Positions 2,289 through 16,561 of a stretch of 64,000 nucleotides of DNA are shown one piece after another (the stretch's first letter is position 1; each line of letters starts with the position of its first letter). The translations under genes and the position numbers were made by a program. The notes beneath the pieces were generated by a model, which worked only from the letters and a program-made list of their open reading frames with translations, was not told the DNA's origin and ran no database searches. Source of the stretch: Bacillota bacterium (GTDB taxonomy: Bacteria > Bacillota > Sulfobacillia > Fermentithermobacillales > Fermentithermobacillaceae); contig JBMNKK010000001.1 of assembly GCA_050952125.1 (NCBI GenBank), positions 117,972 to 181,971 of the forward strand, in the 5' to 3' direction.

Positions 2289-2484
2289 CTGCAATAACAA
2301 TAGGCAAGCCCACAACGAATCCGGGCCGGAGCGGGGATCTCCTGCCCGGACTTCTCTTGGAGCCGGAGTCTTCGCCTCTCCCTTCGGCGCAAAAAGAGGA
2401 TCAAATCTGTCCATTCTAGAATGCTGTATGCAATAAGCCGTGCGTTGCCCGTGAATTGCTGGTATACACAGGGAGGAATCTTTA

Positions 2485-3220: not shown

Positions 3221-3423
3221 ATCCGTCTTGCACTTCCCATACAACACACATTTGCCTCCCACAGCCCACCCCGGAGTCTCTCAATTGCGCCATACTCAGT
3301 AGATTCTGTGATTAGTTGCACTGCACGAAAGGAAAAAGAGGGATCTCACAGTTTTCGTAGAACCCACAGAAGGTTGTGATATGTGGGATACAACATGCAT
3401 GTTCTCGGAAGGAGGCCCCTACA

Positions 3424-4605
3424 ATGCTGCCGGAAAACGTCAAGACAACACTCCGGGAGGAACTGGAAAACCTTAGGCCTGATTTTGTCGCGATGGCTAA
3501 GGAGATGTGGGACAACCCCGAACACGCGCTCCGCGAGTTCAAGGCTGCCAATCTCATCTGCGACACTCTGGCCAAGGCCGGCTTCAAAGTCGAAAAGCCG
3601 GTCGGCGGGCTTGAGACAGCCTTTATCGCCTCGCACGGCGACGAGGACTCTCCCCGGGTCGCCCTGTTGGCGGAGTACGATGCCACACCCGGTTTCGGAC
3701 ACGCTTGCGGCCATAACCTCATCGCCTCTACCGCGGTCGCTGCGGCTAGAGCGCTCGCCAAGATGGGACACCCCGGACAACTGCTCGTTGTAGGATGCCC
3801 GGGAGAGGAAGGCGGCGGAGGCAAGATATTCCTCACAGAGAGCGGCTGCTTCGACGGAATTGACGCAGCCATATACCTCCACCCCTTCTATCTGACCAGG
3901 ATTGGCGGCCGTACTGCTGCGACGATAAACGTGGAACTTAAGTTCACGGGGCGCCCGGCTCATGCCGGAAGGGCGCCTCACACAGGCATCAACGCTCTAG
4001 CTGCGCTTACGGGCACATTCACGCTGCTAGGCCTTCTTAACCAGCAGCTCCCCCCTGACATCCGCTACAACTGGGTAGTGAGCGAAGGTGGGCGAGGCAC
4101 AGGAATAGTACCGGATATCGCTGCAGCCAAAGTAGGTCTCAGAGGGTCATCACACAGACAGGTAGAGTCGCTCTTCAAACACCTTGAAAACTGCGCCAAG
4201 GGAGCATCCATCGCGACCGGCGCGGAGCTCGAGATTAAGAAGGGACTTTCCTATATGCCGCGGCTCACAAACCCCGTCATCGCCAAGGTGATGGAGGATT
4301 ACCTCAAGGAAGCCGGTTTCGAGTGCGATCCCATGCCCGAGCAGGAGTTCGGTAGCACGGACGTGGGTCACGTCAGCATGCGCGTCCCTACGGTTGAAGG
4401 TTACGTCCAGATCTGCGATCGCGACATCCCCAACCACACCAAAGGCTTTGAGGAGGCCGCCAACTCCGAGAGAGGGTTTGAGGCCATGCTCAAAGGCGCG
4501 TGGGCTCTCGCCTGCACGGCGCTGACACTCTTGACCGACGCTTCGCTGGTAGAAGGTGCGTGGGAGAAACAGCGCGAGGGGGTGAAAGCGCGAGAATCCG
4601 AGTGA
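3424..4605 (+). CDS. M20D-family amidohydrolase (N-acyl-amino-acid / hippurate hydrolase-like), M20-1
   Basis: Contains the GHACGHN metal-binding motif typical of M20D amidohydrolases. Start refined to the ATG at 3424, preceded by GGAAGGAGG. The ORF track extends it to 3376. Confidence 0.8.
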   Translation: MLPENVKTTLREELENLRPDFVAMAKEMWDNPEHALREFKAANLICDTLAKAGFKVEKPVGGLETAFIASHGDEDSPRVALLAEYDATPGFGHACGHNLIASTAVAAARALAKMGHPGQLLVVGCPGEEGGGGKIFLTESGCFDGIDAAIYLHPFYLTRIGGRTAATINVELKFTGRPAHAGRAPHTGINALAALTGTFTLLGLLNQQLPPDIRYNWVVSEGGRGTGIVPDIAAAKVGLRGSSHRQVESLFKHLENCAKGASIATGAELEIKKGLSYMPRLTNPVIAKVMEDYLKEAGFECDPMPEQEFGSTDVGHVSMRVPTVEGYVQICDRDIPNHTKGFEEAANSERGFEAMLKGAWALACTALTLLTDASLVEGAWEKQREGVKARESE

Positions 4606-4646
4606 TCCTTAAGAGTTCTTAGGCTGGACAACAAGGAGGGAAAACG

Positions 4647-5405
4647 GTGACTAAGGGTGTTGCTTCACAGTTCGTGTTTCTGGTTCTGTTCGCACTAGCG
4701 ATCCTGTACTACCTGAACGAAGCCAAGAAGGGAAGGAAGATGTGGCTTCGCAAAATCCCTGCTCTTGACGCCGTTGAGGAAGCTATCGGCAGGGCGGCGG
4801 AAATGGGTAAGCCGGTTCTCTACACACCGGGTCTTGACGCCGTCGAGTTTCCGGAGACCCTGGCAGGACTATCGTTCCTCCCGTACGTGGCTAAGCTGAC
4901 GGCTCGCTACAACGTGCGGTTGATCGAGGCTCAGAGAGACCAGGTCGTTTATTCCATTGCAGAAGAAAGCATCCGGCAGACTTACGCTTCAGAAGGAAAG
5001 ATCGATCAGTTCAACCCCACCGACGTAAGGGTCTTCCCGGATAGATACGGATACATATCCGGAATGATCGGCATCATCGACCAAGAGGAAGTAGCCGTAA
5101 ACCTCATGGTGGGGCTCTTCCGTGCTGAAGCCCTCATCTTCGCAGAGGCAGGCAACAGGGCTGGCGCTCTGCAGATCGCGGCGTCAGCCGACCAGCAGAT
5201 CCCCTTCTTCGTGGCCGTTTGCGACTACACCATGATCGGTGAAGAGCTTTATGCGGCAAGCGCCTACGTAAGCGATGACGAGCGGCAGAAGGGAATCATC
5301 CTCGCTCAGGACCTCGGCAAATGGCTCATCTCAGGGATCATCCTGATCGGCGCGGTCCTCGAAACATGCGGGGTCGATAGCTTCACTAACCTCATGAAGA
5401 TGTAG
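4647..5405 (+). CDS. Uncharacterised bitopic membrane protein A1 (paralog of 13687..14460)
   Basis: N- and C-terminal TM helices flank a roughly 200 aa soluble domain. Shares QIPFFVAVCDY and KIPALDAVEEAIGRA motifs with A2. GTG start, RBS AAGGAGGG. Confidence 0.75.
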   Translation: MTKGVASQFVFLVLFALAILYYLNEAKKGRKMWLRKIPALDAVEEAIGRAAEMGKPVLYTPGLDAVEFPETLAGLSFLPYVAKLTARYNVRLIEAQRDQVVYSIAEESIRQTYASEGKIDQFNPTDVRVFPDRYGYISGMIGIIDQEEVAVNLMVGLFRAEALIFAEAGNRAGALQIAASADQQIPFFVAVCDYTMIGEELYAASAYVSDDERQKGIILAQDLGKWLISGIILIGAVLETCGVDSFTNLMKM

Positions 5406-5424
5406 GCGAAAGGAGGAGTCGACG

Positions 5425-6042
5425 TTGAAAACACAAGGCCCAGTAGCAGTAACTTTCGTCTCAGGGCTTATCATGCTGATTAGTTTCTACTTCGGCATTC
5501 TAGGCCAATGGGAGAGCGCGCTTTATTCCTGGTCGGTAATCGTCGCGGGATTTGCAGCCCTCCTCGGTATCGCCAACCTCACGAAGTTGCACGTTACCAG
5601 GATTCAGCGGCGCAAAGAGTCATTCCTGAGCTACACGCTCCTAGTCGTCATGTGGGGAATCATGATTTATGGGTTCATCAATACTCAGAACGCTCCCCTC
5701 TACACTGACCTGTTCGAGGCACTCTACACGCCCGTCGGCACAACAACCATGTCGCTTCTGGCGTTCTTCATCTTTTCAGCCGCGTACCGAGCCTTCAGGC
5801 CCAGATCCCTAGAAGCCACGATAATGCTCATCTGTAGCTTCGTGACTATTCTCGGCAGGGCCCCCGCGGGCGCTCTTATCTGGAAAGGGTTCCCTGTTGT
5901 CACTGAGTGGCTGGTATCGGTACCCGCCAACGCGGGCTCAAGGGGCATCATGCTGGCCGCGGCCCTGGGAGGCGTCTCAATGTCTCTTAGGGTGCTCTTG
6001 GGCATAGAACGCAGACACTTCGGCGGAGGTTCCGCCAGCTAG
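5425..6042 (+). CDS. Uncharacterised polytopic membrane protein B1 (paralog of 14478..15095)
   Basis: 205 aa with about 6 TM segments. Conserved C-terminal RGIMLAAALGGVSMSLRVLLG matches RGIMIGSAIGAVSVSLRVILG in B2. TTG start, RBS AGGAGG. Confidence 0.7.
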   Translation: MKTQGPVAVTFVSGLIMLISFYFGILGQWESALYSWSVIVAGFAALLGIANLTKLHVTRIQRRKESFLSYTLLVVMWGIMIYGFINTQNAPLYTDLFEALYTPVGTTTMSLLAFFIFSAAYRAFRPRSLEATIMLICSFVTILGRAPAGALIWKGFPVVTEWLVSVPANAGSRGIMLAAALGGVSMSLRVLLGIERRHFGGGSAS

Positions 6043-6061
6043 GTTAAGGAGGGAGACCGCA

Positions 6062-6889
6062 GTGAAAAAAGGGAGCAACATTGACAGGATCGTGATGTAC
6101 CTGCTCCTGTTCGTCGTGATGGCGGTACCGCTTATAAAGCCCATGGGGATCCCCCTTGAGATAAGCCCGGAAACCCAGGCCGCCTACGACTTCATCGAGT
6201 CAATACCTGAAGGCTCGACGGTTTGGATCGACTTTGCCTACCGGCCTGCTACAGCGCCTGAAAGCCTGTCGCAGTCGTATGCCGTCTGCCATCAGCTATT
6301 CAAAAAGAACTTCAAGGTAATCTTCTTTTACTGCATACCTGAAGCGAGCCCCTACGTTGTTGAGGTAACGGAGAAACTCTCCAAGGAGTACAACAAGGAG
6401 TACGGCGTAGACTACGTCAACTTGGGATACAAGCCCAACCTTGACTCCGCCCTAAACGGCATGGCGAGAAACTTCGCCGAGATTTTCCCCACCGATGTGG
6501 ATGGCACGCCAACATCGAGCCTGCCCATTACCAAGAACATCAAGGGCGTAGATGACATAGCCATGTTCTTTGTGGTCCACACCGGCTCTCCGGGAGTAGA
6601 CAGCTACTTCCAGCAAATCGAGGGGCAGTTCAAGAAGCCTATTGTTGCTTCAATGACGGCCATCAACGGCCCGACTCTGTATCCCCGTTTCGAAGCCGGT
6701 CAGCTGAAGGGCATGATCGTCGGCCTTAGAGGCTCTGCCGAGTACGAGCTCTTGGTCAAGGAACCTGGCAGCGCCATCTCCGGAATGGACGCGCAGTCGC
6801 TTGGACACCTGCTCATCGCGGCATCCATCGTAATCGGAACCATTCAGTTCCTAGTCAAGAAGAGCAAGGGAGGTGAAGCGGATGCCTAA
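6062..6889 (+). CDS. Uncharacterised bitopic membrane protein C1 (paralog of 15088..15936)
   Basis: N-terminal TM, soluble domain, C-terminal TM. SSLPITKNIKG / SSLPIMKGING conserved with C2. GTG start, RBS AAGGAGGGAG. Confidence 0.7.
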   Translation: MKKGSNIDRIVMYLLLFVVMAVPLIKPMGIPLEISPETQAAYDFIESIPEGSTVWIDFAYRPATAPESLSQSYAVCHQLFKKNFKVIFFYCIPEASPYVVEVTEKLSKEYNKEYGVDYVNLGYKPNLDSALNGMARNFAEIFPTDVDGTPTSSLPITKNIKGVDDIAMFFVVHTGSPGVDSYFQQIEGQFKKPIVASMTAINGPTLYPRFEAGQLKGMIVGLRGSAEYELLVKEPGSAISGMDAQSLGHLLIAASIVIGTIQFLVKKSKGGEADA

Positions 6890-7487
6890 GGGACTTATCC
6901 TGGCGTCCGGCGTGTTCCTCACTCTGGCGGTGTGGAGCTTCCTATGGAAGATCAACCCCGTATACCGGTTTGCAGAGCACGTGTTTGTAGGCTTTGGCGC
7001 CGCGCACTTTGCCGTAGTGGTTTACCACGGAACCATCAAGCCTAACCTGTTGGCTCCGCTTAAGGAAGGGAACCTGCTCCTTATCATCCCGGGCATTCTA
7101 GGGCTTCTATACCTTATGAGGCTCTCTCCGAAAACTGCCTGGCTCAGCCGGTACCCTATGGCCCTTAACATGGGCGTCGCTGCAGGCGTCGGCATCAGGA
7201 GCGTTCTCCAGGGAACCTTGTTCCCGCAGATGCTGTCCATGTTCCAGCCCATGACCGACATAAACCAGGTCATCACAGTGGTGGGCGTCCTCTCCACCAT
7301 CTTCTACTTCTTCTTTGGATTCGAGGCCAAAGGCCCCGCAAAGGGAGTAAAGCATGTAGGACGCATAGTCATGATGATCTTCTTCGGAGCCATCTTCGGA
7401 AACACAGTCATGTCAAGGTTGTCTTACCTTCTTGGCAGGCTGCAGTTCATCTTTGGCGACGTCCTTCACTGGATACCCGGAACCTAG
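6873..7487 (+). CDS. Uncharacterised polytopic membrane protein D1 (paralog of 15938..16561)
   Basis: 204 aa with multiple TM helices. C-terminal LGRLQFIFGD matches IGRLQFLFGE in D2. Overlaps C1 by 17 nt, consistent with translational coupling. Confidence 0.7.
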   Translation: MKRMPKGLILASGVFLTLAVWSFLWKINPVYRFAEHVFVGFGAAHFAVVVYHGTIKPNLLAPLKEGNLLLIIPGILGLLYLMRLSPKTAWLSRYPMALNMGVAAGVGIRSVLQGTLFPQMLSMFQPMTDINQVITVVGVLSTIFYFFFGFEAKGPAKGVKHVGRIVMMIFFGAIFGNTVMSRLSYLLGRLQFIFGDVLHWIPGT

Positions 7488-7522
7488 AACTTAAGTTACG
7501 TCTATGCCAAGGGGTTGAACCT

Positions 7523-8257
7523 ATGAGAATCGATACCGAGAAATGCCGAGGCTGCGGTCTGTGCGTGCCGTTCTGTCCCGCCAACGCCATTACTTTGGCC
7601 GACAGAAAGGCTCGTATTGACGAGGATAAGTGCCTCGAGTGCGGCACGTGCCTGAGGAAAGGGGTTGTCCGCTGCCCCACGGGAGCTTTCTACGAGCCCC
7701 CGGGAGTCTATGAGCGTCCCCGCTCTATCAGGAAGTTCCTCAGCGATCCCGCCACGAACCACAAGGAGACCGGTATCCCCGGGCGCGGGACAGAGGAAGT
7801 TAAGACCAACGACGTGACCGGCCGTGTGAAGCGCGGCTTCGTCGGCATCGGGCTCGAGGTCGGGCGCCCTGCTCTGGGAGCCGATCTCACCGATATAGAG
7901 AAACTCACCATGAGCCTGGCCAAGTCGGGGCTCAACATCCACTGGGAGGAGGACAATCCGGTCACCCACCTGTTCAAGGATCCTGCGACCGGTACCCTGC
8001 TGGATGAATGCAAGGATCAGCGGGTTGTCTCGGCGATCATCGAGTTCGCTTTGCCCGTGAACGAACTCAGGCCTTGTCTGGACACGATCAAGGCAGCATC
8101 CAAAGAGATAAGCACAGTGTTCTCACTGTTTGTGATATCGAGGATGGACGAAGACGGGAACACCCCCCTTGTCTCCGAGCTGGAGGCATGGGGATACGAC
8201 GTGCGCCCCAATTCCAAGGTAAACTTGGGATTGGGCAGGCCACTGAGGGAGGAGTGA
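7523..8257 (+). CDS. 2x[4Fe-4S] ferredoxin-domain protein with a C-terminal domain of unknown function, Fd1 (paralog of 11360..12118)
   Basis: CRGCGLCVPFCP and CLECGTCLRKGVVRCP cluster motifs. Conserved TGIPGRGTEEVKTNDVTGR is shared with Fd2. Confidence 0.75.
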   Translation: MRIDTEKCRGCGLCVPFCPANAITLADRKARIDEDKCLECGTCLRKGVVRCPTGAFYEPPGVYERPRSIRKFLSDPATNHKETGIPGRGTEEVKTNDVTGRVKRGFVGIGLEVGRPALGADLTDIEKLTMSLAKSGLNIHWEEDNPVTHLFKDPATGTLLDECKDQRVVSAIIEFALPVNELRPCLDTIKAASKEISTVFSLFVISRMDEDGNTPLVSELEAWGYDVRPNSKVNLGLGRPLREE

Positions 8258-8264
8258 CGACGCC

Positions 8265-8918
8265 TTGACACACTCACTGCATAGGCGCGGGGCGCCGGAA
8301 ACACTGGAAAACGATTACGTGCTCTTGGTGACGCCCGCCGTTGGGATAAACCACGTAGGGTCTAAGGAGAAACTCCAGAAGATATTGGACGTGATCTGGG
8401 AAATAGGTCCGACCAACATCGGCTCCTACGAGGTAGGCACCATTTTCACAGGTTCAACCCTTGAAGAGATTAAGACAAGTCTCAGCGATAAACCGAGAGT
8501 ACGCTGCGCATTTGACAGCTGCGAGAAGATCACCGAGGTGGTCAGGAGAATCAAAGAGATGGATCTCGGCCTCTCGGTTACCGTGAGCGGCCTCACCGAC
8601 AAGGTGCAGGAAATGAGCAAGCGCCTGGGAATCGAGCCCAACTCGGTGAACCTCTCGCTGGGCATCATGGGAAGAACCGACCTTCTTCCTCCCGAATGGG
8701 TACTTGAGATCACCACAATGTGCGGGCACGGCATGATATCCGCATCTCTTGTGGAAAAGATGGTATCCGATCTCAAGAAGGGCAGAATCACACTGGACAA
8801 AGCGGCTGAAACACTGGCTAGGCCCTGTGTCTGTGGGATATTCAACGTAGCCAGAGCGAAAAAACTCCTCGCCGACCGCCTTGCCTGTGATGAGTCCTGC
8901 AAGGCGGAAGGAGAGTGA
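8265..8918 (+). CDS. Conserved Cys-rich protein of unknown function E1 (paralog of 10698..11315)
   Basis: MTHSLHR N-terminus. ITTMCGHGMIS and CVCGIFN motifs are conserved with E2. TTG start, RBS GAGGGAGGAG. Confidence 0.7.
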   Translation: MTHSLHRRGAPETLENDYVLLVTPAVGINHVGSKEKLQKILDVIWEIGPTNIGSYEVGTIFTGSTLEEIKTSLSDKPRVRCAFDSCEKITEVVRRIKEMDLGLSVTVSGLTDKVQEMSKRLGIEPNSVNLSLGIMGRTDLLPPEWVLEITTMCGHGMISASLVEKMVSDLKKGRITLDKAAETLARPCVCGIFNVARAKKLLADRLACDESCKAEGE

Positions 8919-8922
8919 CGCG

Positions 8923-10545
8923 GTGAATCGTTCAATGACTACAGTGGGCGGCCTATCAACGGCCGCCCACCCTTTGGCAGCAATGGCGGGGGCATGGGTT
9001 CAGGCCCGCGGGGGCAACGCGGTTGACGCGGCTGTAGCTACGGCCTTCGCGCTCCCGGTCGTCGAACCGATGATGTCGGGCGTCCTCGGGCGCGGCTGCT
9101 ACGTGTACGCACCGGTTGACGGCGACCCGGTTACCGTCGACTTCTACTCGGCAGCGCCCGGAAAAGCCACTCCCGATATGTTTAGGTGGATAGAATCTCC
9201 CACCCAGGGAGGCTACCGCTTCTACACTGAAGGCGACCTCAATACGACCGGCCATCTATCGGTTACGGCAAGCGGGTTCTCTCACGCTATGGCCGATCTC
9301 CTGGCCAAGCACGGGACAATGACGTTGGAAGATGTCCTTGCTCCGGCCGCAGACTTTGCCGAAAGAGGGTTTAAGGTATCTCCCAGGCTCCACAGGAACC
9401 TGGTACGCCTGAAGGCGAGACTGGACCAGCACCCCAATGAAGCTATGTCAAAGGTCTGGTTCCCGGAAGGTCAAGTCCCCCCTATCGGCGCAACCGTGAA
9501 ACAGCCTGACCTTGCCCGTACGCTCAGGCTTATCGGGCGCGAGGGGCCGGACGCGGTCTCTACAGGCGAGGTCGCTCAGGCAATCCTGGCCGATGTGAAA
9601 GGACACGGAGGCATTCTGTCGTCAGAAGACATTGAAGATCCGTGGAGATGGGTGGTCAAGAAGAGAACTCCTGTGGCAGGGATCTACAGGGACTGCGAAG
9701 TGCTTGGAGCGGCACCTTCCACTTCGGGAGGCACTACCGTTCTGGAGATCCTCAACATGCTGGAAACTCAGGAGCTCTGCCCCAAGAACAGGATGAGCGA
9801 GGCGCACCTAAGGGCTCTTGTCGGTGCCATGGTAAGAGCGTTTGCCGACAGGGCGTCATACTCGTGGGATCCGGCTTTTGACGAGATCCCTGTGGATACT
9901 CTCATATCAAAAGAGTACGCCGCGAGGAAGATGAAGGAGCCTGTGGCCCCGTTCAAAGCCGCCGAGGATCGAGAATCTCACACCTCTCACCACTCGCATG
10001 TTGATGCTGCCGGCAATATGGTCGCCGTAACTCAGAGTCTCGGTGACGCCTTTGGAGCGGGAGCTATGGTGCCGGAATACGGACTAACGTACGACAACGC
10101 CATGAAGCTCTTTGACCCGAGGCCGGGACGGATGAACTCTATCACAGCCAACAAGAAGCCGCTCGGGAGCATGTCGCCGACCATCCTGAAGAAAGACGGC
10201 CGGCCGTTCATGTCCTTGGGCAGCCCTTCGGGCACGAGGATCATCAATGCTGTAGTTCAGGTCATATCCAACGTCGTAGACTTCGGTGATGACCTGCAGA
10301 AGGCGATCGACATGCCGCGAATCCACTGGTCGGGCGACGAGTTGGAGCTCGAAAACAGGATGCCCGTGGGCGTCCTGGAGACCCTCAAGAGCTTCGGCTT
10401 CTCTCCCATTGTTAAGGCAGCATGGGATGAGTGGTTTGGCGGCGTCAACGCTGTGATGGACCTTGGCCGCGGCATAAGAGCGGCGGGATCGGATCCGCGC
10501 CGAGAGGCCGGCGCTGCGGGATGGCATGTAATGACCCACTCGTGA
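8923..10545 (+). CDS. ggt: Gamma-glutamyltranspeptidase (Ntn hydrolase)
   Basis: 540 aa. GGT-like sequence including a T-S-H-H-S-H-V-D region resembling the autoprocessing site TTHFSVVD. Start refined to the GTG at 8923, 6 nt after GGAAGGAGAG. Confidence 0.8.
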   Translation: MNRSMTTVGGLSTAAHPLAAMAGAWVQARGGNAVDAAVATAFALPVVEPMMSGVLGRGCYVYAPVDGDPVTVDFYSAAPGKATPDMFRWIESPTQGGYRFYTEGDLNTTGHLSVTASGFSHAMADLLAKHGTMTLEDVLAPAADFAERGFKVSPRLHRNLVRLKARLDQHPNEAMSKVWFPEGQVPPIGATVKQPDLARTLRLIGREGPDAVSTGEVAQAILADVKGHGGILSSEDIEDPWRWVVKKRTPVAGIYRDCEVLGAAPSTSGGTTVLEILNMLETQELCPKNRMSEAHLRALVGAMVRAFADRASYSWDPAFDEIPVDTLISKEYAARKMKEPVAPFKAAEDRESHTSHHSHVDAAGNMVAVTQSLGDAFGAGAMVPEYGLTYDNAMKLFDPRPGRMNSITANKKPLGSMSPTILKKDGRPFMSLGSPSGTRIINAVVQVISNVVDFGDDLQKAIDMPRIHWSGDELELENRMPVGVLETLKSFGFSPIVKAAWDEWFGGVNAVMDLGRGIRAAGSDPRREAGAAGWHVMTHS

Positions 10546-10697: not shown

Positions 10698-11315
10698 TTA
10701 TTCCTTTGCCATTTTGTTCAGGATCTTCTCTGCCCGTGCAGGGTTAAAGATGCCGCAGGGACAGAGCCGACCCAACCTCTTGGCTGCCTTTTCAGCGGTT
10801 GTACGTCCCTTCTTCACGTCTTCTGCAAGCTTCTCCACTATCGCCGCGGAGATCATGTGGTGACCGCACATCGTCGTGATAGCCAACACGTCCTCTGACG
10901 GGAGCAGCTCTTTCTTGCCCCATACCCCAAGCGAGAAGTTGATGGTATGCGGAACCACTCCCGCCTCGGCGCACGCCGGTATCACCTTGTCTAGAAGCCC
11001 GCTGATGATGACCGAGATCCCGAGGTCGGCCTCCTTCACCATCTTGAGAAACTTAACGACCTGCTCCTGTGAGGTAAAGGCTCCCCGGAGGCGCGATTTG
11101 TCTGAAATGTTCTTCCTAATCTCTTCTGGAGAGACCTCCAGGATATTGCCTGATTTCACATCTCCCCAGTTTATCGAGTCGCATGCCTCGGCGGCATCCA
11201 TGAACACTAGAGCCTTGTCTTTGATGTTCTTGTCGTTGACGCCTTGAGCCTGGTACATCAACCAAGCGTAATCTTCTTCCAAGAAGGGGCCGCTTCTATG
11301 TAGCGTGTGAGTCAT
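10698..11315 (-). CDS. Conserved Cys-rich protein of unknown function E2
   Basis: Homolog of E1, with MTHTLHRSG, ITTMCGHHMIS and CPCGIFN. ATG start with GGAGGG RBS. Confidence 0.7.
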   Translation of the reverse strand: MTHTLHRSGPFLEEDYAWLMYQAQGVNDKNIKDKALVFMDAAEACDSINWGDVKSGNILEVSPEEIRKNISDKSRLRGAFTSQEQVVKFLKMVKEADLGISVIISGLLDKVIPACAEAGVVPHTINFSLGVWGKKELLPSEDVLAITTMCGHHMISAAIVEKLAEDVKKGRTTAEKAAKRLGRLCPCGIFNPARAEKILNKMAKE

Positions 11316-11359
11316 CTCGAACCCTCCGTTTTCTTCATCTCTTGCTGAAATGAGCCAGT

Positions 11360-12118
11360 CTAGGGAACCAGAGGTCGCCCCAGCCCCACGTTGACCTTTC
11401 CTCTAATGGGAGTAACGCCGAATTTGTCCAGAACCTTGAGGCTCGGGTGATAGCCGTTTGCATCGGTTCTCAAGACTAGGCCCACCGAAAACACGGTGTC
11501 GACCTTATCCTCTACATCGCGAAGGGCCTGAAGCACGTCACCAAGCTTGGAGAGTTCGCACTTGCCCTCAACGATAATTGACAGAAGGTAGTGGTCTTTT
11601 ATCGAGGGATCCATGACGCCGGTCTCAATATCCAAAACCTGACCCAAGGGACTGTGCTCGGCGCTCTCCAGTTTCAGGCCAGCCTTCACCACAGCTTTGG
11701 CAACGGTCTCAACATCGGCCATCCGCACTCCCACGCCGGGCCTTCCCATGTCGATGGCGATGCCGGCTTCATCACGTCCAAACCTGCCGGTTACATCGTT
11801 GGTCTTTGCCTCTTCAGTGCCTCGTCCGGGCACTCCCGTTTCGGCAGTAGTCTCCGTCGGGTCGCTGAGGATATGGCGAAACATATCGTTGAAGGTCTCA
11901 AGAGGACCGGGAGACATGGCTTTCGTCGGGCATACGTCGTTACGCACGCAAACGTAGCAGTCGGTGCACTTATGCGGATCGACTAGAGCCAGCCCATCCT
12001 CTACCTCTATGGCTCCGACCGTACAGTACGGGACACAATTCCCGCACCCCACGCACTTTTCAGGGTCAATTATGATCAAAGGGTATCCCTCCAGCCGATA
12101 TTGGATTTTGTATACCAC
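11360..12118 (-). CDS. 2x[4Fe-4S] ferredoxin-domain protein Fd2
   Basis: CVGCGNCVPYCTVGA and CTDCYVCVRNDVCP cluster motifs. TGVPGRGTEEAKTNDVTGR matches Fd1. Confidence 0.75.
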   Translation of the reverse strand: MVYKIQYRLEGYPLIIIDPEKCVGCGNCVPYCTVGAIEVEDGLALVDPHKCTDCYVCVRNDVCPTKAMSPGPLETFNDMFRHILSDPTETTAETGVPGRGTEEAKTNDVTGRFGRDEAGIAIDMGRPGVGVRMADVETVAKAVVKAGLKLESAEHSPLGQVLDIETGVMDPSIKDHYLLSIIVEGKCELSKLGDVLQALRDVEDKVDTVFSVGLVLRTDANGYHPSLKVLDKFGVTPIRGKVNVGLGRPLVP

Positions 12119-12329
12119 ACAACAAGGATACTTTGCCAGTCACATAGGAAATTCCTTCTGAAATACGAGTCAAAATGAAGGAAAATCACATGCTTTTCTT
12201 GAAATGCATGTATGCAATGTACGTGGCATACACCATATCGCATTTCGTAGTTCACAGATAAGGAGGTGACGTTTGGAGCCTGTCAATACACCCGCTTGAG
12301 TTAGGTTCAGTAGAGGAGGTTTCAAGAGC

Positions 12330-13673
12330 GTGGAGTCAAAGCTCGCGAAGTACATCCGCGACAACCGCCAGAAGTTTATCGATGAGCTTAGGGAGTTTCT
12401 CCAGCAGCCAACGATAGCCGCGGAAGGGATCGGCGGCGAAGAAGGCGCCAGGCTGGTCGAGCAATACCTCGCGAAACGGAACGTCAAGACAAGGCGCCTG
12501 CCTAACCCCGGAAATCCGGTTATCTACGGTGAGGTTGAGGGCGAATCAGACAAGACGGTGCTGCTCTACTGTCATTACGATGTACAGCCGATTGGAAGCG
12601 AGAGCGACTGGCAGTATCCCCCGTTTGCGGCTACGCTGGTCGGTGACCGGTTGTGGGGACGCGGGAGCGGCGACCACAAAGGATGCCTTCTATCCCGCAT
12701 ACAGGCTTTGGAAGCAGTCATGGCAGTCTACGGAAAACCCGCGCCAACGGTCAAGTTCCTCCTTGAGGCCGACGAAGAGACCGGGAGCCCGTATCTGGCC
12801 AAAGTGATGGAGGAAAACCGCAATCTACTGAAGGCAGACGGTAGTCTGTACTCCGGCAGGTTTAAGGACCCGGAAGGCCGGCCGATGATAGCCGCGGGAG
12901 GTTCCGGCTCATGTAGGATCCGCCTGACCGCCAGCGGCGCCAACGTTAACCTGCACCCCATGAACGCCACCCTTGTTTCTAACCCAATCCTGAGGCTCAT
13001 CCGGGCCGTATCGCTCATAGTCGACGACAGCCAAAGGATAACGGTACCGGGAGTTAGAGAAGCCGTTCTGGAACCGACGAAGGAAGACCGGGAGGTACTT
13101 GAGAACTTCCCGCTTGACGAGGAAGGAATCAAGAAGTCTCTCGGAATCGACAGCTTCATCGCCAACTTGACGGGGCGCGAAGCCGTCATGCACCAATTCT
13201 TCGAGCCTCGTGTCATGGTAGCCGGTATCGAGACAAGTGCGGGAGAGCATCTAATCCCTTCGGTGCCCGCCAGCGCGAGTATTACCTTGGGCTTCAGCTT
13301 ATTTGTCGATCAAGAACCGGACACGGTCTTCGAACAGGTTCGCTCACACTTGATATCCCACGGATTCGGCGATCTCCGCATCGAATTGCTGGGTGGAAAG
13401 CCGCCGGCAAAGACTCCGATAGCAGATCCGCTTGTTCAAAGCCTAATCTCCGCTGCGAAGGCGACCTACGGACAGGATCCTGTAGTCTATCCCACGACCC
13501 TTGGCGCCGGCCCGTGGAGCCTCTTCATCAAGCAGAACGGGATACCCATGGCTTCAGATCCCGGCGTCGCTCACTCGGGATCCAATTACCACGCTCCGAA
13601 CGAAAATATCTATCTGAGCGACTACTTCCAGGGGCTGGAATGCATGGCAAGATTCCTGGTCTCGTACAAGTAA
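12330..13673 (+). CDS. M20A-family dipeptidase/metallo-hydrolase (M20-2)
   Basis: 447 aa. YCHYDVQP motif typical of M20 dipeptidases (PepV/ArgE/DapE superfamily). GTG start, RBS GAGGAGG. Confidence 0.75.
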   Translation: MESKLAKYIRDNRQKFIDELREFLQQPTIAAEGIGGEEGARLVEQYLAKRNVKTRRLPNPGNPVIYGEVEGESDKTVLLYCHYDVQPIGSESDWQYPPFAATLVGDRLWGRGSGDHKGCLLSRIQALEAVMAVYGKPAPTVKFLLEADEETGSPYLAKVMEENRNLLKADGSLYSGRFKDPEGRPMIAAGGSGSCRIRLTASGANVNLHPMNATLVSNPILRLIRAVSLIVDDSQRITVPGVREAVLEPTKEDREVLENFPLDEEGIKKSLGIDSFIANLTGREAVMHQFFEPRVMVAGIETSAGEHLIPSVPASASITLGFSLFVDQEPDTVFEQVRSHLISHGFGDLRIELLGGKPPAKTPIADPLVQSLISAAKATYGQDPVVYPTTLGAGPWSLFIKQNGIPMASDPGVAHSGSNYHAPNENIYLSDYFQGLECMARFLVSYK

Positions 13674-13686
13674 GGAGGTGTGCTAA

Positions 13687-14460
13687 GTGGTTGAAGGACG
13701 CGTAGCAAGCTTCATACTGCTGGTCATGACAGCAGTAGCCGTCTATCTCTCAGTGCAGAGAGCCCGGTCAGGTATACTCCCGGAACTTCGTAAAATCGCC
13801 GCGTTTGACGCTATAGAAGAGGCAGTCGGTAGAGCGACTGAGCTAGGTCGCCCGGTGCTCTTCACTCCGGGCAAGGGCGACATCACGGACATCGGCGGCC
13901 CTCAGGTCCTTGCAGGTTTGGACATGCTATCGTATGTTTCCCAGTTGACCGCTAGGTACAAGGCAGGACTCGTAGCGACCATTCCCGTGCCGACCGTTCA
14001 GCCTATCGCGGAAGACGTCATCCACACATCCTACATAAGAGAGGGGCAGTCAGACGCCTATAGCCCGGATATGGTCCGCTTTGTCTCCCCCGAGCAGATG
14101 GCGTACGCCACCGGTACAGCGGGCGTTGTCATGCGCGAACAGGTCGCAGCGACCTTCCTGGTAGGACCCTTCTACGGCGAGTCGCTGATCATTGCCGAAT
14201 CTGCGGCGCAGCTGGGAGCCATCCAGATAGCGGGAACCGCCAGGATGGTCCAGATCCCCTTCTTCGTCGGCGCTTGCGACTACGCCCTCATCGGCGAAGA
14301 GATGTACGCAACCAGCGCCTATCTGACAGGGGATCCTGTACAATTGGGCATTATCCATGGCCAGGATACCGTACGCGCCATCACGATCCTTCTCATCGTT
14401 ATCGGATCCCTTCTCACGACGGTTGGAGTAGATAGCCTGACAACACTCATCAGAATGTAA
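13687..14460 (+). CDS. Uncharacterised bitopic membrane protein A2
   Basis: Paralog of A1 (QIPFFVGACDY; KIAAFDAIEEAVGRA). Confidence 0.75.
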   Translation: MVEGRVASFILLVMTAVAVYLSVQRARSGILPELRKIAAFDAIEEAVGRATELGRPVLFTPGKGDITDIGGPQVLAGLDMLSYVSQLTARYKAGLVATIPVPTVQPIAEDVIHTSYIREGQSDAYSPDMVRFVSPEQMAYATGTAGVVMREQVAATFLVGPFYGESLIIAESAAQLGAIQIAGTARMVQIPFFVGACDYALIGEEMYATSAYLTGDPVQLGIIHGQDTVRAITILLIVIGSLLTTVGVDSLTTLIRM

Positions 14461-14477
14461 AAAGGTGGTGAAATGCC

Positions 14478-15095
14478 GTGCGAAGAGAAGTTCCGTTATT
14501 GGTTGGCGGATTGACAGGCTTCCTGTTTGTGGTCGAGTACTTCTTCAATGTTCCCTTCCTGAGTGAAACAGCCAAGGCAGTTCAAAGCTGGGTTGTCGTC
14601 ATATCAGCGTTCATGATGGGGCTGGGAGCTATCAACCTCCTCCGCATCCACTCCAGAAACCTGGTCAACCCCAGAAGGACAAGTAAGCTGAACTCAGTAC
14701 TCATGCTGGGCTCTCTCCTATGCATGTCTTTCACAGGTATCGTCCTTGGCCAAGACAGCCCTTTCTTCAAGACACTCTTCAGCAGCGTGTATGAACCACT
14801 AGGAGCAACAGCATTCGCGACGCTCATGTTCTATGCCGCCACTGTCGTCTTCAGATCGTTCAGGTTCAGAAATTTGGCCACCACACTCTTCATGGCTTCG
14901 GCCGCTCTCGTCATTTTCGGCCGCTCTCCGCTTGGAGAAGCATTGGTGCCGGTCGCTAAGACGCTGGCCGACTGGATCTTCAAGATCCCGAACCTCGCCG
15001 GACAGAGAGGTATCATGATAGGTTCGGCTATCGGCGCCGTCTCTGTCAGCCTCCGGGTGATCCTAGGAGTAGACCGCAAATATCTCGGTGAATAG
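14478..15095 (+). CDS. Uncharacterised polytopic membrane protein B2
   Basis: Paralog of B1. Confidence 0.7.
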   Translation: MRREVPLLVGGLTGFLFVVEYFFNVPFLSETAKAVQSWVVVISAFMMGLGAINLLRIHSRNLVNPRRTSKLNSVLMLGSLLCMSFTGIVLGQDSPFFKTLFSSVYEPLGATAFATLMFYAATVVFRSFRFRNLATTLFMASAALVIFGRSPLGEALVPVAKTLADWIFKIPNLAGQRGIMIGSAIGAVSVSLRVILGVDRKYLGE

Positions 15096-15936
15096 TGAGG
15101 TGAGAATCGTGGATTGGCTTAGGAATCTCGATAGACGGATCATCTATGCGATAGTGTTTCTTTCACTGCTATTGCCTTTAGCCTGGCCTATCGGTTCACC
15201 GGTCAGCGTTAGCACGTGGACCAGAGCGGTTTACGAAGCCATCGAAGGTCTCTCCCCTGGCGACACGATTCTGTTCGCCATGGATATCAGCGTTACGTCA
15301 TCAGCTGACGAGCTTCCTCAGGCAACAACGGTGCTCCGTCACCTGATGTCTCGTGACATCCGTGTTATTTTCGTAAACTTCGTCCCCACCGGCGCGCCGT
15401 ACACGGCTGACGCTATAGCTCAGTATGAGAAAGAAGGCAAGGTGTACGGTGAAGACTTCGCTCACCTGGGATACGTTGCAGGGCTCGAGTCAGGCATGGT
15501 TGCCTTCTTTGCCGATATGGCCGGCACGACTCCGACAGACGCACGGGGAAACAGGACATCTTCCCTGCCCATCATGAAGGGCATCAACAGCCTCCACGAT
15601 GTGGAACTCGTAGTCGCCAACGTGGGAGGGACTCCCGGAATCGCGGAATGGGTCAGGCAAGCCCACGTACCCTACAACAGCAAGCGGCTCTTGGTAAACG
15701 CGCTTGGCCCGCACTTTGGCCTCATTGAGCCCTACATCCAGTCCAAACAGGTCGTGGGTGTCCTTGCCGGTTCCAGGGGCGCGGCCGAGTATGAATCCCT
15801 CACGAAGATGCCCGGGCTGGGCGCCGCCATGATGGACTCACAGTCAATCGGGCTCATGTCCATTCTGGCCATCATGATCTTGGGCAACATCGTGCATTTC
15901 GTAGATAAACGGAAAGCAAAGGGAGGGACAAAGTGA
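15088..15936 (+). CDS. Uncharacterised bitopic membrane protein C2
   Basis: Paralog of C1. Overlaps B2 by 8 nt. Confidence 0.7.
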   Translation: MNSEVRIVDWLRNLDRRIIYAIVFLSLLLPLAWPIGSPVSVSTWTRAVYEAIEGLSPGDTILFAMDISVTSSADELPQATTVLRHLMSRDIRVIFVNFVPTGAPYTADAIAQYEKEGKVYGEDFAHLGYVAGLESGMVAFFADMAGTTPTDARGNRTSSLPIMKGINSLHDVELVVANVGGTPGIAEWVRQAHVPYNSKRLLVNALGPHFGLIEPYIQSKQVVGVLAGSRGAAEYESLTKMPGLGAAMMDSQSIGLMSILAIMILGNIVHFVDKRKAKGGTK

Positions 15937-15937
15937 C

Positions 15938-16561
15938 ATGGCTACTGACGTCAGCACTTGGATTGCCGCAATCGCTAGCCTCTGCATGCTGTCGCTCCTA
16001 CTAGGAGACAACCCGTTCTTCAGCGCAGCTGAACATATATACGTCGGGCTGGGTGCCGGTTACTACCTGGTCCTGGGGTTCCAGAATATCAAGAACATGG
16101 CGTGGGGACCGCTGGTCAGAGGTGAAGGCATCATCTACGTTGTTCCGCTGATCCTGGGACTCCTTGTCTACACTCGATACTTCAAATCGGTCAGCTACCT
16201 CAGCCGCATATCGGCTTCGATCGTGGTATGCATGGGAGCAGCCATCGGTCTCAGAGGCTCCATCGTCAGCGATTTCGCCAAGCAGATTGAATCGACTATC
16301 TCACTGCCGCTGAACTCCTTTGACAACTTAGTGGTTGTCGTCGGAACGGCCGCGACCCTCGGGTACTTCTACTTCACCAAACTGAAGTCGCCCGGCCTCG
16401 CAAAGGTTCAGAAAGCGGTAAGCGTGACAGGTCAATCGGTGATGATGGTAGCGCTGGGAGCCTTGTTTGCGAACAGCATGTTCACTTTTGCGGCGAGGCT
16501 GATAGGAAGGCTTCAGTTCCTCTTCGGAGAGTGGATTCACTTCGTCAAGCTTCCTTCTTAA
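15938..16561 (+). CDS. Uncharacterised polytopic membrane protein D2
   Basis: Paralog of D1. Confidence 0.7.
   Translation: MATDVSTWIAAIASLCMLSLLLGDNPFFSAAEHIYVGLGAGYYLVLGFQNIKNMAWGPLVRGEGIIYVVPLILGLLVYTRYFKSVSYLSRISASIVVCMGAAIGLRGSIVSDFAKQIESTISLPLNSFDNLVVVVGTAATLGYFYFTKLKSPGLAKVQKAVSVTGQSVMMVALGALFANSMFTFAARLIGRLQFLFGEWIHFVKLPS

What the first reader, a model, noticed from the sequence alone, without database searches (positions are those of the whole stretch)
12203..12247. Nested inverted repeats in the divergent promoter region of cluster 2, sharing a 10-mer with the region upstream of the GntR gene
The 211-bp intergenic region between Fd2 (minus) and M20-2 (plus) contains GAAATGCAT...ATCGCATTTC, with a nested perfect inverted repeat TGTATGC-N10-GCATACA (12209-12232). 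The 10-mer TGTATGCAAT (12209-12218) recurs at 2425-2434, just upstream of the GntR gene, where it is followed by ATTGCtggTATACA (an imperfect inverted copy). This suggests a shared operator, possibly for the GntR-family regulator at 2485-3168, coordinating both clusters.
Basis: seen in the sequence. Interest (0 to 1): 0.5.

Follow-up and report, generated by a model that had tools for sequence, protein, structure and literature searches.

The report
GntR repressor binding sites, both clusters
The inverted repeat contains one of four predicted binding sites for the neighbouring GntR-type regulator, a conserved 16-base palindrome that probably switches two uncharacterised peptide-utilisation gene clusters on and off together; this is an ordinary kind of bacterial gene switch controlling unstudied genes.

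Summary
TGTATGC-N10-GCATACA (12209-12232) lies inside GAAATGC/GCATTTC (12201-07 / 12240-46), and TGTATGCAAT occurs exactly twice in the window (2425, 12209).

Taken alone, these features are weak evidence. The regulatory idea holds, but the functional unit is different. GntR orthologues (45-59% identity) and Fd2 or M20-1 orthologues in seven related contigs carry a GTATAC-centred 16-bp palindrome, consensus ATGTGGTATACCACAT, upstream of gntR, the Fer4 gene and M20.

A weight matrix built only from those relatives puts its three best hits in the 64-kb window at:
- 3381-3396, upstream of M20-1;
- 12105-12120, upstream of Fd2;

The gntR upstream region has the core TGGTATACAC (2460-2469) and a weaker site, 2421-2436, that contains the 10-mer.

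The motif fits the published FadR-subfamily operator consensus. It recurs exactly upstream of a Fer4 orthologue in L174. The outer repeat is off-register and probably incidental.

Verdict: a new member of a known kind, namely a FadR-type GntR repressor regulon. Binding and the ligand are inferred, not shown.

The parts
2485..3168 (+). Gene for the GntR-family regulator of the FadR subfamily (winged HTH plus FCD domain, 227 aa). It is the proposed repressor.
   Evidence: Pfam GntR PF00392 (1.2e-20) and FCD PF07729 (1.3e-30). No NCBIfam equivalog reaches its cutoff. Orthologues at 45-59% identity keep the recognition helix VSRTPVRE invariant, along with His142, His186 and His208.
2457..2472 (+). 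Candidate autoregulatory operator TGCTGGTATACACAGG (core TGGTATACAC, 2460-2469). It abuts the gntR Shine-Dalgarno sequence, 15 nt before the GTG start.
   Evidence: The core is identical to the gntR-upstream operator core in L170 (ATGTGGTATACACTAT) and 9/10 identical to those in L088 and L089. It ranks second in the window with the core-only matrix. The flanks do not match, so the full 16-mer score is low.
2421..2436 (+). Weaker operator-like site ATGCTGTATGCAATAA.
   Evidence: 10.43 bits with the relatives-only matrix, fifth best in the window. P=0.0027 in local shuffles.
3381..3396 (+). Operator ATGTGGGATACAACAT, 28 nt upstream of the M20-1 start (ATG 3424). It matches the consensus at 14/16 positions.
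   Evidence: Best hit in the whole window (22.05 bits), above all 200 window shuffles and 0 of 4000 local shuffles. The M20-1 orthologue in L174 has a 17-bit site in the same relative position.
12105..12120 (-). Operator GTGTGGTATACAAAAT, read in the Fd2 direction. It lies 25-40 nt upstream of the Fd2 start (TTG 12079).
   Evidence: Second best hit in the window (19.76 bits; P=0.0003 locally). Fer4 orthologues in L087/L172, L171, L173, L088, L089 and L175 carry the motif at the same relative position.
12221..12236 (+). Operator ACGTGGCATACACCAT upstream of M20-2.
   Evidence: Third best hit in the window (14.61 bits). None of 4000 local shuffles gave a second-best site this good. It stays in the top 3 with matrices built from gntR-upstream sites only or from Fer4-upstream sites only.
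12205..12220 (+). Degenerate operator-like or auxiliary box TGCATGTATGCAATGT, directly abutting the main operator.
   Evidence: Its right half, TGCAATGT, matches the L089 operator half TACAATGT at 7/8 positions, but the half-site score is only 4.3 bits and the full matrix score is below 0. The same abutting arrangement at a 16-bp offset is seen in L089, 2664/2680. The exact 10-mer recurs upstream of the Fer4 orthologue in L174. It sits 12 nt from the operator centre, within the 7-12 nt range reported for extra boxes (PMC4494728).
12201..12246 (.). Outer inverted repeat GAAATGC (12201-07) / GCATTTC (12240-46). It is probably incidental or part of the promoter modules.
   Evidence: Perfect 7-nt arms, but the dyad is 3 nt off the inner dyad. 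37.5% of shuffles have some 7-nt inverted repeat with spacer of 40 or less. There is no counterpart in relatives. The RNA hairpin is not significant, z=-1.09.
3424..10545 (+). Cluster 1, a proposed target operon. It encodes an M20 amidohydrolase, DUF6754, three membrane proteins, a Fer4 protein, a 217-aa protein and gamma-glutamyltranspeptidase.
   Evidence: Pfam and NCBIfam results, gene calls, paralogy and membrane-segment counts.
10698..12079 (-). The Fd2 (Fer4, 239 aa) plus 205-aa protein operon, a proposed target.
   Evidence: The gene pair is conserved next to GntR orthologues in L087, L088, L089 and L171.
12330..16561 (+). Cluster 2, a proposed target operon. It encodes a dipeptidase-like M20, DUF6754 and three membrane proteins. 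A class A beta-lactamase-family gene follows at 16719-17543.

Best explanation
The finding's interval holds an operator for the FadR-subfamily GntR regulator encoded at 2485-3168.

The recognition element is a 16-bp GTATAC-centred palindrome, consensus ATGTGGTATACCACAT with core TGGTATACCA. Copies lie upstream of all four local transcription units:
- gntR itself: core 2460-2469, plus a weaker site at 2421-2436;
- cluster 1 (M20-1): 3381-3396;
- the Fd2 operon: 12105-12120;
- cluster 2 (M20-2): 12221-12236.

Proposed mechanism, inferred by analogy with characterised FadR-type regulators such as UxuR, DipR and NanR. GntR dimers occupy these sites, which overlap or abut the promoters or 5' leaders. 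They repress the four units, including gntR. An unidentified small acidic ligand then binds the FCD domain, probably through a metal held by three invariant histidines, and releases the protein. In the 250-bp divergent region, each operon has its own proximal site.

This copy may act as an auxiliary box for cooperative binding, may contain the -10 element, or both.

What is shown: motif presence, its conservation in relatives, its statistical enrichment, and the regulator's domain type. What is inferred: that this GntR is the binder, that it represses, the ligand, and the role of the auxiliary box.
For: 1. The regulator has GntR and FCD domains.

2. Orthologous GntR genes sit next to the same gene families, namely the Fer4-239 plus approximately 194-219-aa protein pair, the DUF6754 module and M20-1. 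These orthologues are 45-59% identical with an invariant recognition helix.

3. The motif lies upstream of gntR in the relatives:
- L170: ATGTGGTATACACTAT;
- L171 and L087: ATGTGATATACACTAT;
- L088: ATCTGGTATACATTGT;
- L089: ACTTGGTATACAATGT.

4. The motif lies upstream of the Fer4 gene in the relatives:
- L087/L172: tATGTGGTATACCACATa, a perfect 18-bp palindrome;
- also L171, L173, L088 and L089.

5. A matrix built only from those relatives ranks 3381, 12105 and 12221 as the top three of about 64,000 positions. Scores are 22.1, 19.8 and 14.6 bits, against a shuffled-window maximum with mean 11.9 and 95th percentile 16.1. Local-composition P values are 0.0003 or lower for the two strongest, 0 of 4000 for the second site in the divergent region, and 0.0027 for the gntR site. 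Matrices from either half of the training set give the same top three.

6. Two prospective tests on loci fetched after the matrix was fixed both succeeded. In L174 the top hit (17 bits) is 20-35 nt upstream of the M20-1 orthologue. In L175 the top hit is 24 nt upstream of the Fer4 gene.

7. The motif fits the published FadR-subfamily consensus, NyGTM-N0-1-KACNy with TKGT/ACMA boxes (PMC4494728). It shares its core with the E. coli UxuR operator aaattggtataccaattt (PMC8092373). DipR is an experimental precedent: a FadR-type repressor binding GTATAC/GAATAC at six promoters, including its own (PMC11472048).

8. In relatives, predicted sigma-A -10 boxes fall inside or against the operator: L089 TTTACA-17-TACAAT, plus L170 and L171.
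Against: - There is no binding, expression or transcription-start data. All of this is sequence inference.
- All strain-level contigs of this species are identical across the region, so close-range footprinting is uninformative. The comparative set is small: 10 training sites from about 6 species.
- The M20-2 operator deviates from the consensus at the core (GCATAC, not GTATAC) and scores 14.6 bits. A shuffled 64-kb window sometimes reaches that score somewhere.
- The gntR-proximal site matches only in its core.
- No convincing sigma-A promoter could be placed in the window's own regions, so the geometry of repression is unknown.
- More distant GntR homologues (33-39% identity) show no GTATAC enrichment upstream.
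- In L088 the DUF6754 module downstream of gntR has no detectable site.
Confidence: 0.75

Rival explanations
1. The 10-mer, the left arm and their roughly 50-nt upstream similarity are promoter elements, not operator DNA. They would be a -10-like TGCAAT/CAAT(A/G)T box and upstream modules shared by co-regulated promoters. Only the right arm would belong to an operator. This is compatible with the main explanation for the right arm.
For: - The gntR upstream region (2389-2434) and the cluster-2 region (12170-12218) align over about 50 nt, ending at the 10-mer. The score is 28, P=0.003.
- In L089 and L171 the predicted -10 (TACAAT, TACACT) is the right half of the operator.
- A hexamer CAATAT or CAATAC lies 3-4 nt after the operator core in Fer4 promoters of the window, L171 and L173, and CAATAT is also present upstream of Fer4 in L174, which lacks the GTATAC core at that position.
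- In L162 the reverse complement of the 10-mer overlaps a near-consensus TTGACA-17-TACAAT promoter.
Against: - No acceptable -35 hexamer lies 16-18 nt upstream of TGCAAT in either window region.
- TGCAAT lacks the key A at position 2 of the -10 hexamer.
- At gntR, the matrix scores the 16-mer containing the 10-mer as an operator-like site (10.4 bits).
Confidence: 0.35
2. The nested inverted repeat and the shared 10-mer are chance features of an AT-richer intergenic region and have no function of their own.
For: - 7-nt inverted repeats are common in shuffles: 37.5% at any spacing of 40 or less, 14.5% at 12 or less.
- About 2 ten-mers of the segment are expected to recur in the window, and a 12-mer recurs inside a coding region.
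- With up to 1 mismatch, the 10-mer gives 3 matches against 1.46 expected.
- The outer and inner dyads are out of register.
Against: - The right arm lies in the third-best matrix hit of the window.
- A nested pair occurs in 0.1% of shuffles.
- The exact 10-mer recurs upstream of a Fer4 orthologue in L174. The background is 2 hits in about 3.6 million strand-positions of unrelated loci.
- There is extended similarity to the gntR upstream region, P=0.003.
Confidence: 0.15
3. The repeats form an RNA hairpin in the M20-2 leader. This would be an attenuator or stability element, possibly coupled to the 8-codon mini-ORF at 12273-12299.
For: - The predicted MFE structure pairs both the inner and the outer arms, at -13.6 kcal/mol.
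- A strong Shine-Dalgarno sequence and a short ORF lie downstream in the leader.
Against: - The fold is no better than shuffles: z=-1.09, and 26 of 200 shuffles fold as well. The 140-nt leader gives z=+0.44.
- There is no Rfam match and no T-tract terminator.
- The same motif occurs on either strand and upstream of different genes in relatives, which fits a DNA site rather than an RNA.
Confidence: 0.05
4. The palindrome is the operator of a transcription factor other than the adjacent GntR, encoded outside the window.
For: - Binding has not been tested.
- GTATAC-centred palindromes are used by several GntR-family and other regulators.
Against: - The motif lies upstream of the gntR orthologue itself in all five relatives examined, which is typical autoregulation.
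- The motif class matches the FadR-subfamily consensus.
- No other GntR-family gene was found among the window proteins scanned. The only other regulator seen is an OmpR-type response regulator.
Confidence: 0.08

Closest known systems
FadR-subfamily GntR regulators and their palindromic operators, as surveyed by Suvorova et al. 2015 (PMC4494728) and in the Rigali consensus TNGTNNNACNA
   Same: - An N-terminal GntR winged HTH and a C-terminal FCD domain.
- An A/T-centred palindrome with TKGT/ACMA boxes. GTATAC fits GTM-N0-KAC.
- Sites upstream of the regulator's own gene and of adjacent catabolic or transport operons.
- Paired sites in a divergent intergenic region, each near its own operon.
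- Weaker extra boxes 7-12 nt from the site centre.
   Different: - The specific 16-bp consensus ATGTGGTATACCACAT and this orthologous group have not been described, as far as I could find.
- The regulated genes (the DUF6754 module and the Fer4 plus 205-aa pair) are uncharacterised.
- The ligand is unknown.
E. coli UxuR/ExuR, the hexuronate regulators of the FadR subfamily
   Same: - The operator core is identical: TGGTATACCA, within aaattggtataccaattt (PMC8092373).
- The FCD domain probably uses a metal-mediated ligand. Three His are invariant in the present group.
   Different: - The flanks differ: ATG...CAT here, AAT...ATT there.
- NCBIfam scores for ExuR and UxuR are 41.6 and 34.2 bits against cutoffs of 396 and 442, so this is not an orthologue.
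- There are no hexuronate genes in the regulon.
DipR of Alcaligenes faecalis, the GntR/FadR repressor of dipicolinate catabolism (PMC11472048)
   Same: - An essential GTATAC core, with a tolerated one-base variant (GAATAC there, GCATAC/GTATGC here).
- Several operators across one gene cluster, including the regulator's own promoter.
- Operators that overlap the -35/-10/+1 regions.
- Repression relieved by the pathway substrate.
   Different: - A different phylum and a different gene content.
- Sequence relatedness to DipR was not tested here.
- Everything for DipR is experimental. Here it is prediction.
E. coli NanR, which binds (GGTATA)3 repeats (PMC8012715)
   Same: A FadR-type FCD regulator that recognises GGTATA-containing DNA, with several dimers bound cooperatively at adjacent sites.
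   Different: - NanR uses direct hexamer repeats, not a palindrome.
- The NCBIfam NanR score is 78.9 bits against a cutoff of 260.

Membership tests
GntR family, FadR subfamily (regulator) | N-terminal GntR-type winged helix-turn-helix domain | tested here: met
   PF00392, residues 15-77, E=1.2e-20, 73.3 bits against a cutoff of 27.
GntR family, FadR subfamily (regulator) | C-terminal all-helical FCD effector and oligomerisation domain | tested here: met
   PF07729, residues 87-210, E=1.3e-30, 106.8 bits against a cutoff of 24.3. His142, His186 and His208 are invariant in orthologues.
FadR-subfamily operator | Palindromic site matching NyGTM-N0-1-KACNy, with TKGT/ACMA boxes | tested here: met
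   The consensus ATGTGGTATACCACAT contains TGGT-AT-ACCA. The definition is taken from PMC4494728. Window sites score 22.1, 19.8 and 14.6 bits.
FadR-subfamily operator | Sites positioned upstream of the regulator gene and of neighbouring regulated operons, and conserved in orthologous loci | tested here: met
   The motif lies upstream of gntR in L087, L088, L089, L170 and L171. It lies upstream of Fer4 in L087/L172, L171, L173, L088, L089 and L175, and upstream of M20-1 in L174.
FadR-subfamily operator | Direct binding of the cognate regulator to the site | not testable with these tools
   Needs EMSA, footprinting or DAP-seq.
FadR-subfamily repressor system | Ligand-dependent release from DNA and derepression | not testable with these tools
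   No expression or ligand data. The ligand is unknown.
Named FadR-type equivalogs (UxuR, ExuR, NanR, PdhR, LldR, GlcC, CsiR, PhnR) | Score at or above the curated NCBIfam cutoff | tested here: not met
   The best match is phnR_burk at 131.8 bits against 271.5. NanR scores 78.9 against 260, ExuR 41.6 against 396 and UxuR 34.2 against 442. The protein is not a member of any named orthologous group.
Cis-regulatory RNA (riboswitch, attenuator or leader) | A match to an RNA family, or a fold significantly more stable than shuffles | tested here: not met
   No Rfam hit at the gathering threshold, and only noise at E of 5 or below. Fold z=-1.09 and +0.44.

The most novel reading that the evidence does not exclude
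The operator set defines a previously undescribed regulon that is conserved in thermophilic spore-forming Bacillota, including relatives of Ca. Fermentithermobacillus.

A FadR-type sensor would co-control three things:
- an uncharacterised four-protein membrane module, made of DUF6754 and three polytopic proteins and present here in two paralogous copies;
- a conserved Fe-S protein plus 205-aa protein pair;
- amidohydrolase, peptidase and GGT genes, and in relatives also TctABC/NicX/aconitase-X/LarA-like genes.

Together these would form a new uptake and catabolic pathway for an acidic amino-acid derivative or peptide.

At M20-2, the abutting two-fold-related operators (GTATGC | GCATAC) would be bound cooperatively by a dimer of dimers.
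Probability: 0.3. Interest if true: 0.55.

Novelty: new member of a known kind. Interest (0 to 1): 0.3.

Why it matters
The switch itself is ordinary. A FadR-type GntR repressor recognising a GTATAC palindrome and autoregulating is textbook behaviour.

Its value is as a handle on unknown biology. It links four transcription units into one predicted regulon: two paralogous DUF6754-containing membrane modules, an Fe-S protein pair, M20 hydrolases and gamma-glutamyltranspeptidase. It also links these to TctABC/NicX/aconitase-X clusters in relatives. DUF6754 has no literature at all.

A defined operator and regulator make the system testable. DAP-seq or EMSA, followed by ligand screening against the FCD domain, could reveal the substrate of these uncharacterised genes. 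The result might also yield a thermophile-derived small-molecule biosensor of the UxuR type.

Tried and rejected
1. Close-range phylogenetic footprinting. Six strain-level contigs (L081-L086) are 100% identical across the intergenic region, so they carry no information.

2. M20-2 homologues in genome contigs. The best is 35-36% identical and from Chloroflexota. In the protein database the next relative is 41% identical. There is no orthologous cluster-2 promoter to compare.

3. Metagenome scan with the GntR alignment. It returned only homologues at 32-39% identity. Their upstream regions show no GTATAC or T.GTATAC.A enrichment, 0.31 against 0.32 per kb. They are not informative for this orthologous group.

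4. Sigma-54 promoter reading of TGGCAT...GCA. The GG-N10-GC spacing fits only at the M20-1 site and fails at the other three. Rejected by inspection.

5. Sporulation sigma-E -10 (CATACAnT) reading of GCATACAC. The final T is missing and the other sites do not fit. Rejected by inspection.

6. Sigma-A promoter scans of the window regions. Nothing reached 9/12, and the relaxed scan gave only one weak hit at 8. The promoter position remains unknown.

7. RNA structure or Rfam explanation. Not supported.

8. The matrix hit at 20000-20015 (CTGTATACAG, 10.6 bits). It lies between a stop codon and a terminator-like hairpin. About 1.5 hits at this score are expected by chance, so it is not counted as a site.

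9. Recurrences of GTACGTGGCA (34674) and ACACCATATCGC (51093). Both are in coding sequence and are treated as chance.

Full report
**Observation**

- TGTATGC (12209-12215) and GCATACA (12226-12232) are a perfect 7-nt inverted repeat with a 10-nt spacer. The repeat extends to 12-nt arms at 83% complementarity.
- GAAATGC (12201-12207) and GCATTTC (12240-12246) form an outer perfect repeat. Its dyad is 3 nt away from the inner dyad.
- TGTATGCAAT occurs exactly twice in 64 kb, at 2425-2434 and 12209-12218.
- ATTGCTGGTATACA follows the first copy after 20 nt, at 2455-2468.

There are two corrections. The outer arm starts at 12201. Fd2 almost certainly starts at TTG 12079: it gives 239 aa, has a GGAGGG Shine-Dalgarno sequence, and matches the gene calls. 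The divergent intergenic region is therefore 250 bp.

**Is it more than chance?**

Alone, it is only marginally beyond chance.
- In dinucleotide shuffles of the 250-bp region, a 7-nt inverted repeat with spacer of 12 or less appears in 14.5% of trials.
- Some repeat with spacer of 40 or less appears in 37.5%.
- A nested pair is rare, at 0.1%, but that test is post hoc.
- Sharing a 10-mer with the 135-nt gntR upstream region happens in 4.3% of shuffles.
- About two 10-mers of the 46-nt segment are expected to recur somewhere in the window. Five do, including a 12-mer inside spoIVA coding sequence.

**Context**

The window comes from a spore-forming Bacillota MAG. Evidence: GerA/B/C, SpoIVA, a T-box leader, and NCBI names for identical proteins.

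| Coordinates | Strand | Content |
|---|---|---|
| 2485-3168 | + | GntR-family regulator with an FCD domain (FadR subfamily) |
| 3424-10545 | + | Cluster 1: M20 amidohydrolase, DUF6754, three membrane proteins, Fer4 protein, 217-aa protein, GGT |
| 10698-12079 | - | Fd2 plus a 205-aa protein |
| 12330 onward | + | Cluster 2: dipeptidase-like M20, DUF6754, three membrane proteins, then a class A beta-lactamase-family gene |

Six genes are paralogous between the two clusters at 30-48% identity. The two M20 genes are not paralogous.

**Comparative evidence**

Strain-level contigs are identical across the region and carry no information. No close M20-2 orthologue exists in the collections.

The regulator and Fd2 do have useful relatives.
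- GntR orthologues at 45-59% identity have an invariant recognition helix. They are L087 (Ca. Fermentithermobacillus carboniphilus), L088, L089, L170 and L171.
- They lie next to the same families: the Fer4-239 plus approximately 194-219-aa protein pair, the DUF6754 module, and TctCBA/NicX/aconitase-X/LarA-like genes.
- Fd2 orthologues at 64-83% identity added L172-L175.

In these loci a GTATAC-centred palindrome recurs.

| Position | Locus | Sequence |
|---|---|---|
| Upstream of Fer4 | L087/L172 | tATGTGGTATACCACATa (perfect 18-bp palindrome) |
| Upstream of Fer4 | L171 | ATGTGGTATACCATAT |
| Upstream of Fer4 | L173 | ATGCGGTATCCCACAT |
| Upstream of gntR | L170 | ATGTGGTATACACTAT |
| Upstream of gntR | L171, L087 | ATGTGATATACACTAT |
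| Upstream of gntR | L088 | ATCTGGTATACATTGT |
| Upstream of gntR | L089 | ACTTGGTATACAATGT |

**Independent test on the window**

I built a palindromised 16-mer weight matrix from ten sites in the relatives only and scanned the window.

| Rank | Coordinates | Sequence | Bits | Location |
|---|---|---|---|---|
| 1 | 3381-3396 | ATGTGGGATACAACAT | 22.05 | 28 nt before the M20-1 ATG |
| 2 | 12105-12120 | (Fd2-proximal site) | 19.76 | 25-40 nt before the Fd2 start |
| 3 | 12221-12236 | ACGTGGCATACACCAT | 14.61 | upstream of M20-2 |
| 5 | 2421-2436 | ATGCTGTATGCAATAA | 10.43 | upstream of gntR, contains the 10-mer |

- Shuffled windows reach a maximum of 11.9 bits on average, with a 95th percentile of 16.1.
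- With local-composition shuffles, the M20-1 and Fd2 sites have P of 0.0003 or lower. A second-best site as good as 14.6 bits in the divergent region occurred in 0 of 4000 trials. The gntR site has P=0.0027.
- Matrices built only from gntR-upstream sites, or only from Fer4-upstream sites, return the same top three.

Two loci fetched after the matrix was fixed behaved as predicted.
- In L174 the best hit (17.0 bits) lies 20-35 nt upstream of a 67.5%-identical M20-1 orthologue, which is transcribed divergently from the Fer4 orthologue.
- In L175 the best hit lies 24 nt upstream of the Fer4 gene.

The right arm is part of a genuine, conserved operator-type site.

The left arm and 10-mer sit in a 16-mer (12205-12220) that abuts the main site.
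- Its right half, TGCAATGT, resembles the L089 operator half TACAATGT at 7/8 positions.
- Its left half does not match. The half-site score is 4.3 bits and the full score is below 0.
- Two abutting 16-mers at the same 16-bp offset occur upstream of Fer4 in L089.
- The box lies 12 nt from the main site's centre. This is the range in which Suvorova et al. report weaker additional boxes for GntR-family sites (PMC4494728).
- The exact 10-mer also occurs upstream of the Fer4 orthologue in L174 (822-831). TATGCAAT flanks the operator in L171. In about 1.8 Mb of unrelated loci the 10-mer occurs twice.
- The gntR and cluster-2 regions align over about 50 nt ending at the 10-mer, P=0.003.

So the 10-mer is probably functional. 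It could be a degenerate auxiliary operator, or the -10 region of promoters that share an architecture. In L089 and L171 the predicted -10 is the operator's right half.

The perfect inner inverted repeat arises because the two adjacent cores carry mirror-image single changes, GTATGC and GCATAC.

The outer repeat has no counterpart in relatives, is out of register, and gives an RNA fold no better than shuffles (z=-1.09). I regard it as incidental.

**Mechanism (inferred)**

The motif fits the FadR-subfamily consensus, NyGTM-N0-1-KACNy with TKGT/ACMA boxes (PMC4494728). Its core is identical to the E. coli UxuR operator (PMC8092373). DipR provides an experimentally worked precedent: a GTATAC core with a tolerated single-base variant, six operators including its own promoter, and release by the pathway substrate (PMC11472048).

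By analogy, GntR dimers would repress gntR, cluster 1, the Fd2 operon and cluster 2. An unidentified ligand would bind the FCD domain and release them. Three invariant histidines suggest a metal-mediated site. In the divergent region each operon has its own proximal site, one of the two arrangements described for GntR-family double sites.

Binding, the sign of regulation, the promoter positions and the ligand have not been shown.

**Comparison and novelty**

The regulator meets the domain and operator criteria of the FadR subfamily. It reaches no NCBIfam equivalog cutoff, including UxuR, ExuR, NanR, PdhR, LldR and PhnR. It is therefore a new orthologous group of a well-known kind.

The interest lies mainly in the regulon. 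DUF6754 has no literature, and the membrane module and Fe-S pair are unannotated.

**Verdict**

The regulator and the idea of co-regulation are right. The operator unit is wrong, and the strongest sites were missed.
- Novelty: a new member of a known kind.
- Interest: 0.3.

Noticed in passing
window 12260-12299: A strong Shine-Dalgarno sequence, AAGGAGGTGA (12260-69), is followed by an 8-codon mini-ORF, TTG 12273 to TGA 12299 (MEPVNTPA*). It lies in the M20-2 leader, 30 nt before the real start, which has its own Shine-Dalgarno sequence. It could be a leader peptide or a remnant. It is identical in all strain contigs, so conservation says nothing.
   Followed up: no
window 3330-3379, 12169-12204, 12240-12269, 2389-2422: The three promoter regions share upstream modules, seen by eye.
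- AAAAAGAGGGATC...TTTTCGTAGAA in the M20-1 region.
- AAAATGAAGGAAAATC...TTTTCTTGAAA in the M20-2 region.
- CAAAAAGAGGATC...TTCTAGAA in the gntR region.
- TTTCGTAG..CACAGA.AAGG..GTGA occurs at 3353-3379 and again at 12243-12269.

Only the gntR and cluster-2 pair was tested (P=0.003). The function is unknown. It could be an UP or -35 region, or a second factor's site.
   Followed up: partly
window 4647-7487 and 13687-16561; 7523-8918 and 10698-12079: Two paralogous six-gene sets: DUF6754 at 45% identity, three membrane proteins at 30-33%, a Fer4 protein at 41%, and a 205/217-aa protein at 48%.

The four membrane proteins look like an uncharacterised transporter or membrane complex. No paper mentions DUF6754.
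   Followed up: partly
L087 2485-2521; L172 3492-3528; L088 about 9760-9800; L171 about 19370-19410: A separate conserved element lies upstream of tctC in the relatives: GAATACAnAATACyAAACACTAmATAC. In L087/L172 it gives two weak operator-like hits 21 bp apart (12.5 and 7.5 bits). This suggests the same GntR also controls a TctCBA/NicX/aconitase-X/LarA-like cluster that is absent from this window.
   Followed up: partly
window 20000-20015: The perfect 10-bp palindrome CTGTATACAG (10.6 bits) is identical to the L089 Fer4-upstream core. It lies between the stop of the Cu_amine_oxidN1-domain gene and a terminator-like hairpin, upstream of the 119-aa plus oligoendopeptidase F operon. It could be a fifth site or chance. 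About 1.5 hits at this score are expected.
   Followed up: partly
window 23621-23895 (-): A T-box leader (99 bits) lies upstream of a short, 320-aa class II tRNA-synthetase-like gene (22624-23586) that has only the catalytic core domain.
   Followed up: no
L088 10685-11055: The 370-nt spacer between the gntR orthologue and the DUF6754 module has no operator hit. It does contain a terminator-like hairpin followed by a T-run (about 10900-10965). It may simply be the gntR terminator, or it may be a leader or attenuator of the DUF6754 operon.
   Followed up: no
window 51093-51104 and 34674-34683: An exact 12-mer (ACACCATATCGC) and an exact 10-mer (GTACGTGGCA) from the finding's interval recur inside coding regions. 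This is a reminder that 10-12-mer recurrences arise by chance at this window size.
   Followed up: yes
window 12079-12118: The longest ORF for Fd2 starts at GTG 12118. The Shine-Dalgarno sequence, the Pfam alignment offset and two gene callers all support TTG 12079. This places the operator at 12105-12120 in the promoter or leader rather than in coding sequence.
   Followed up: yes
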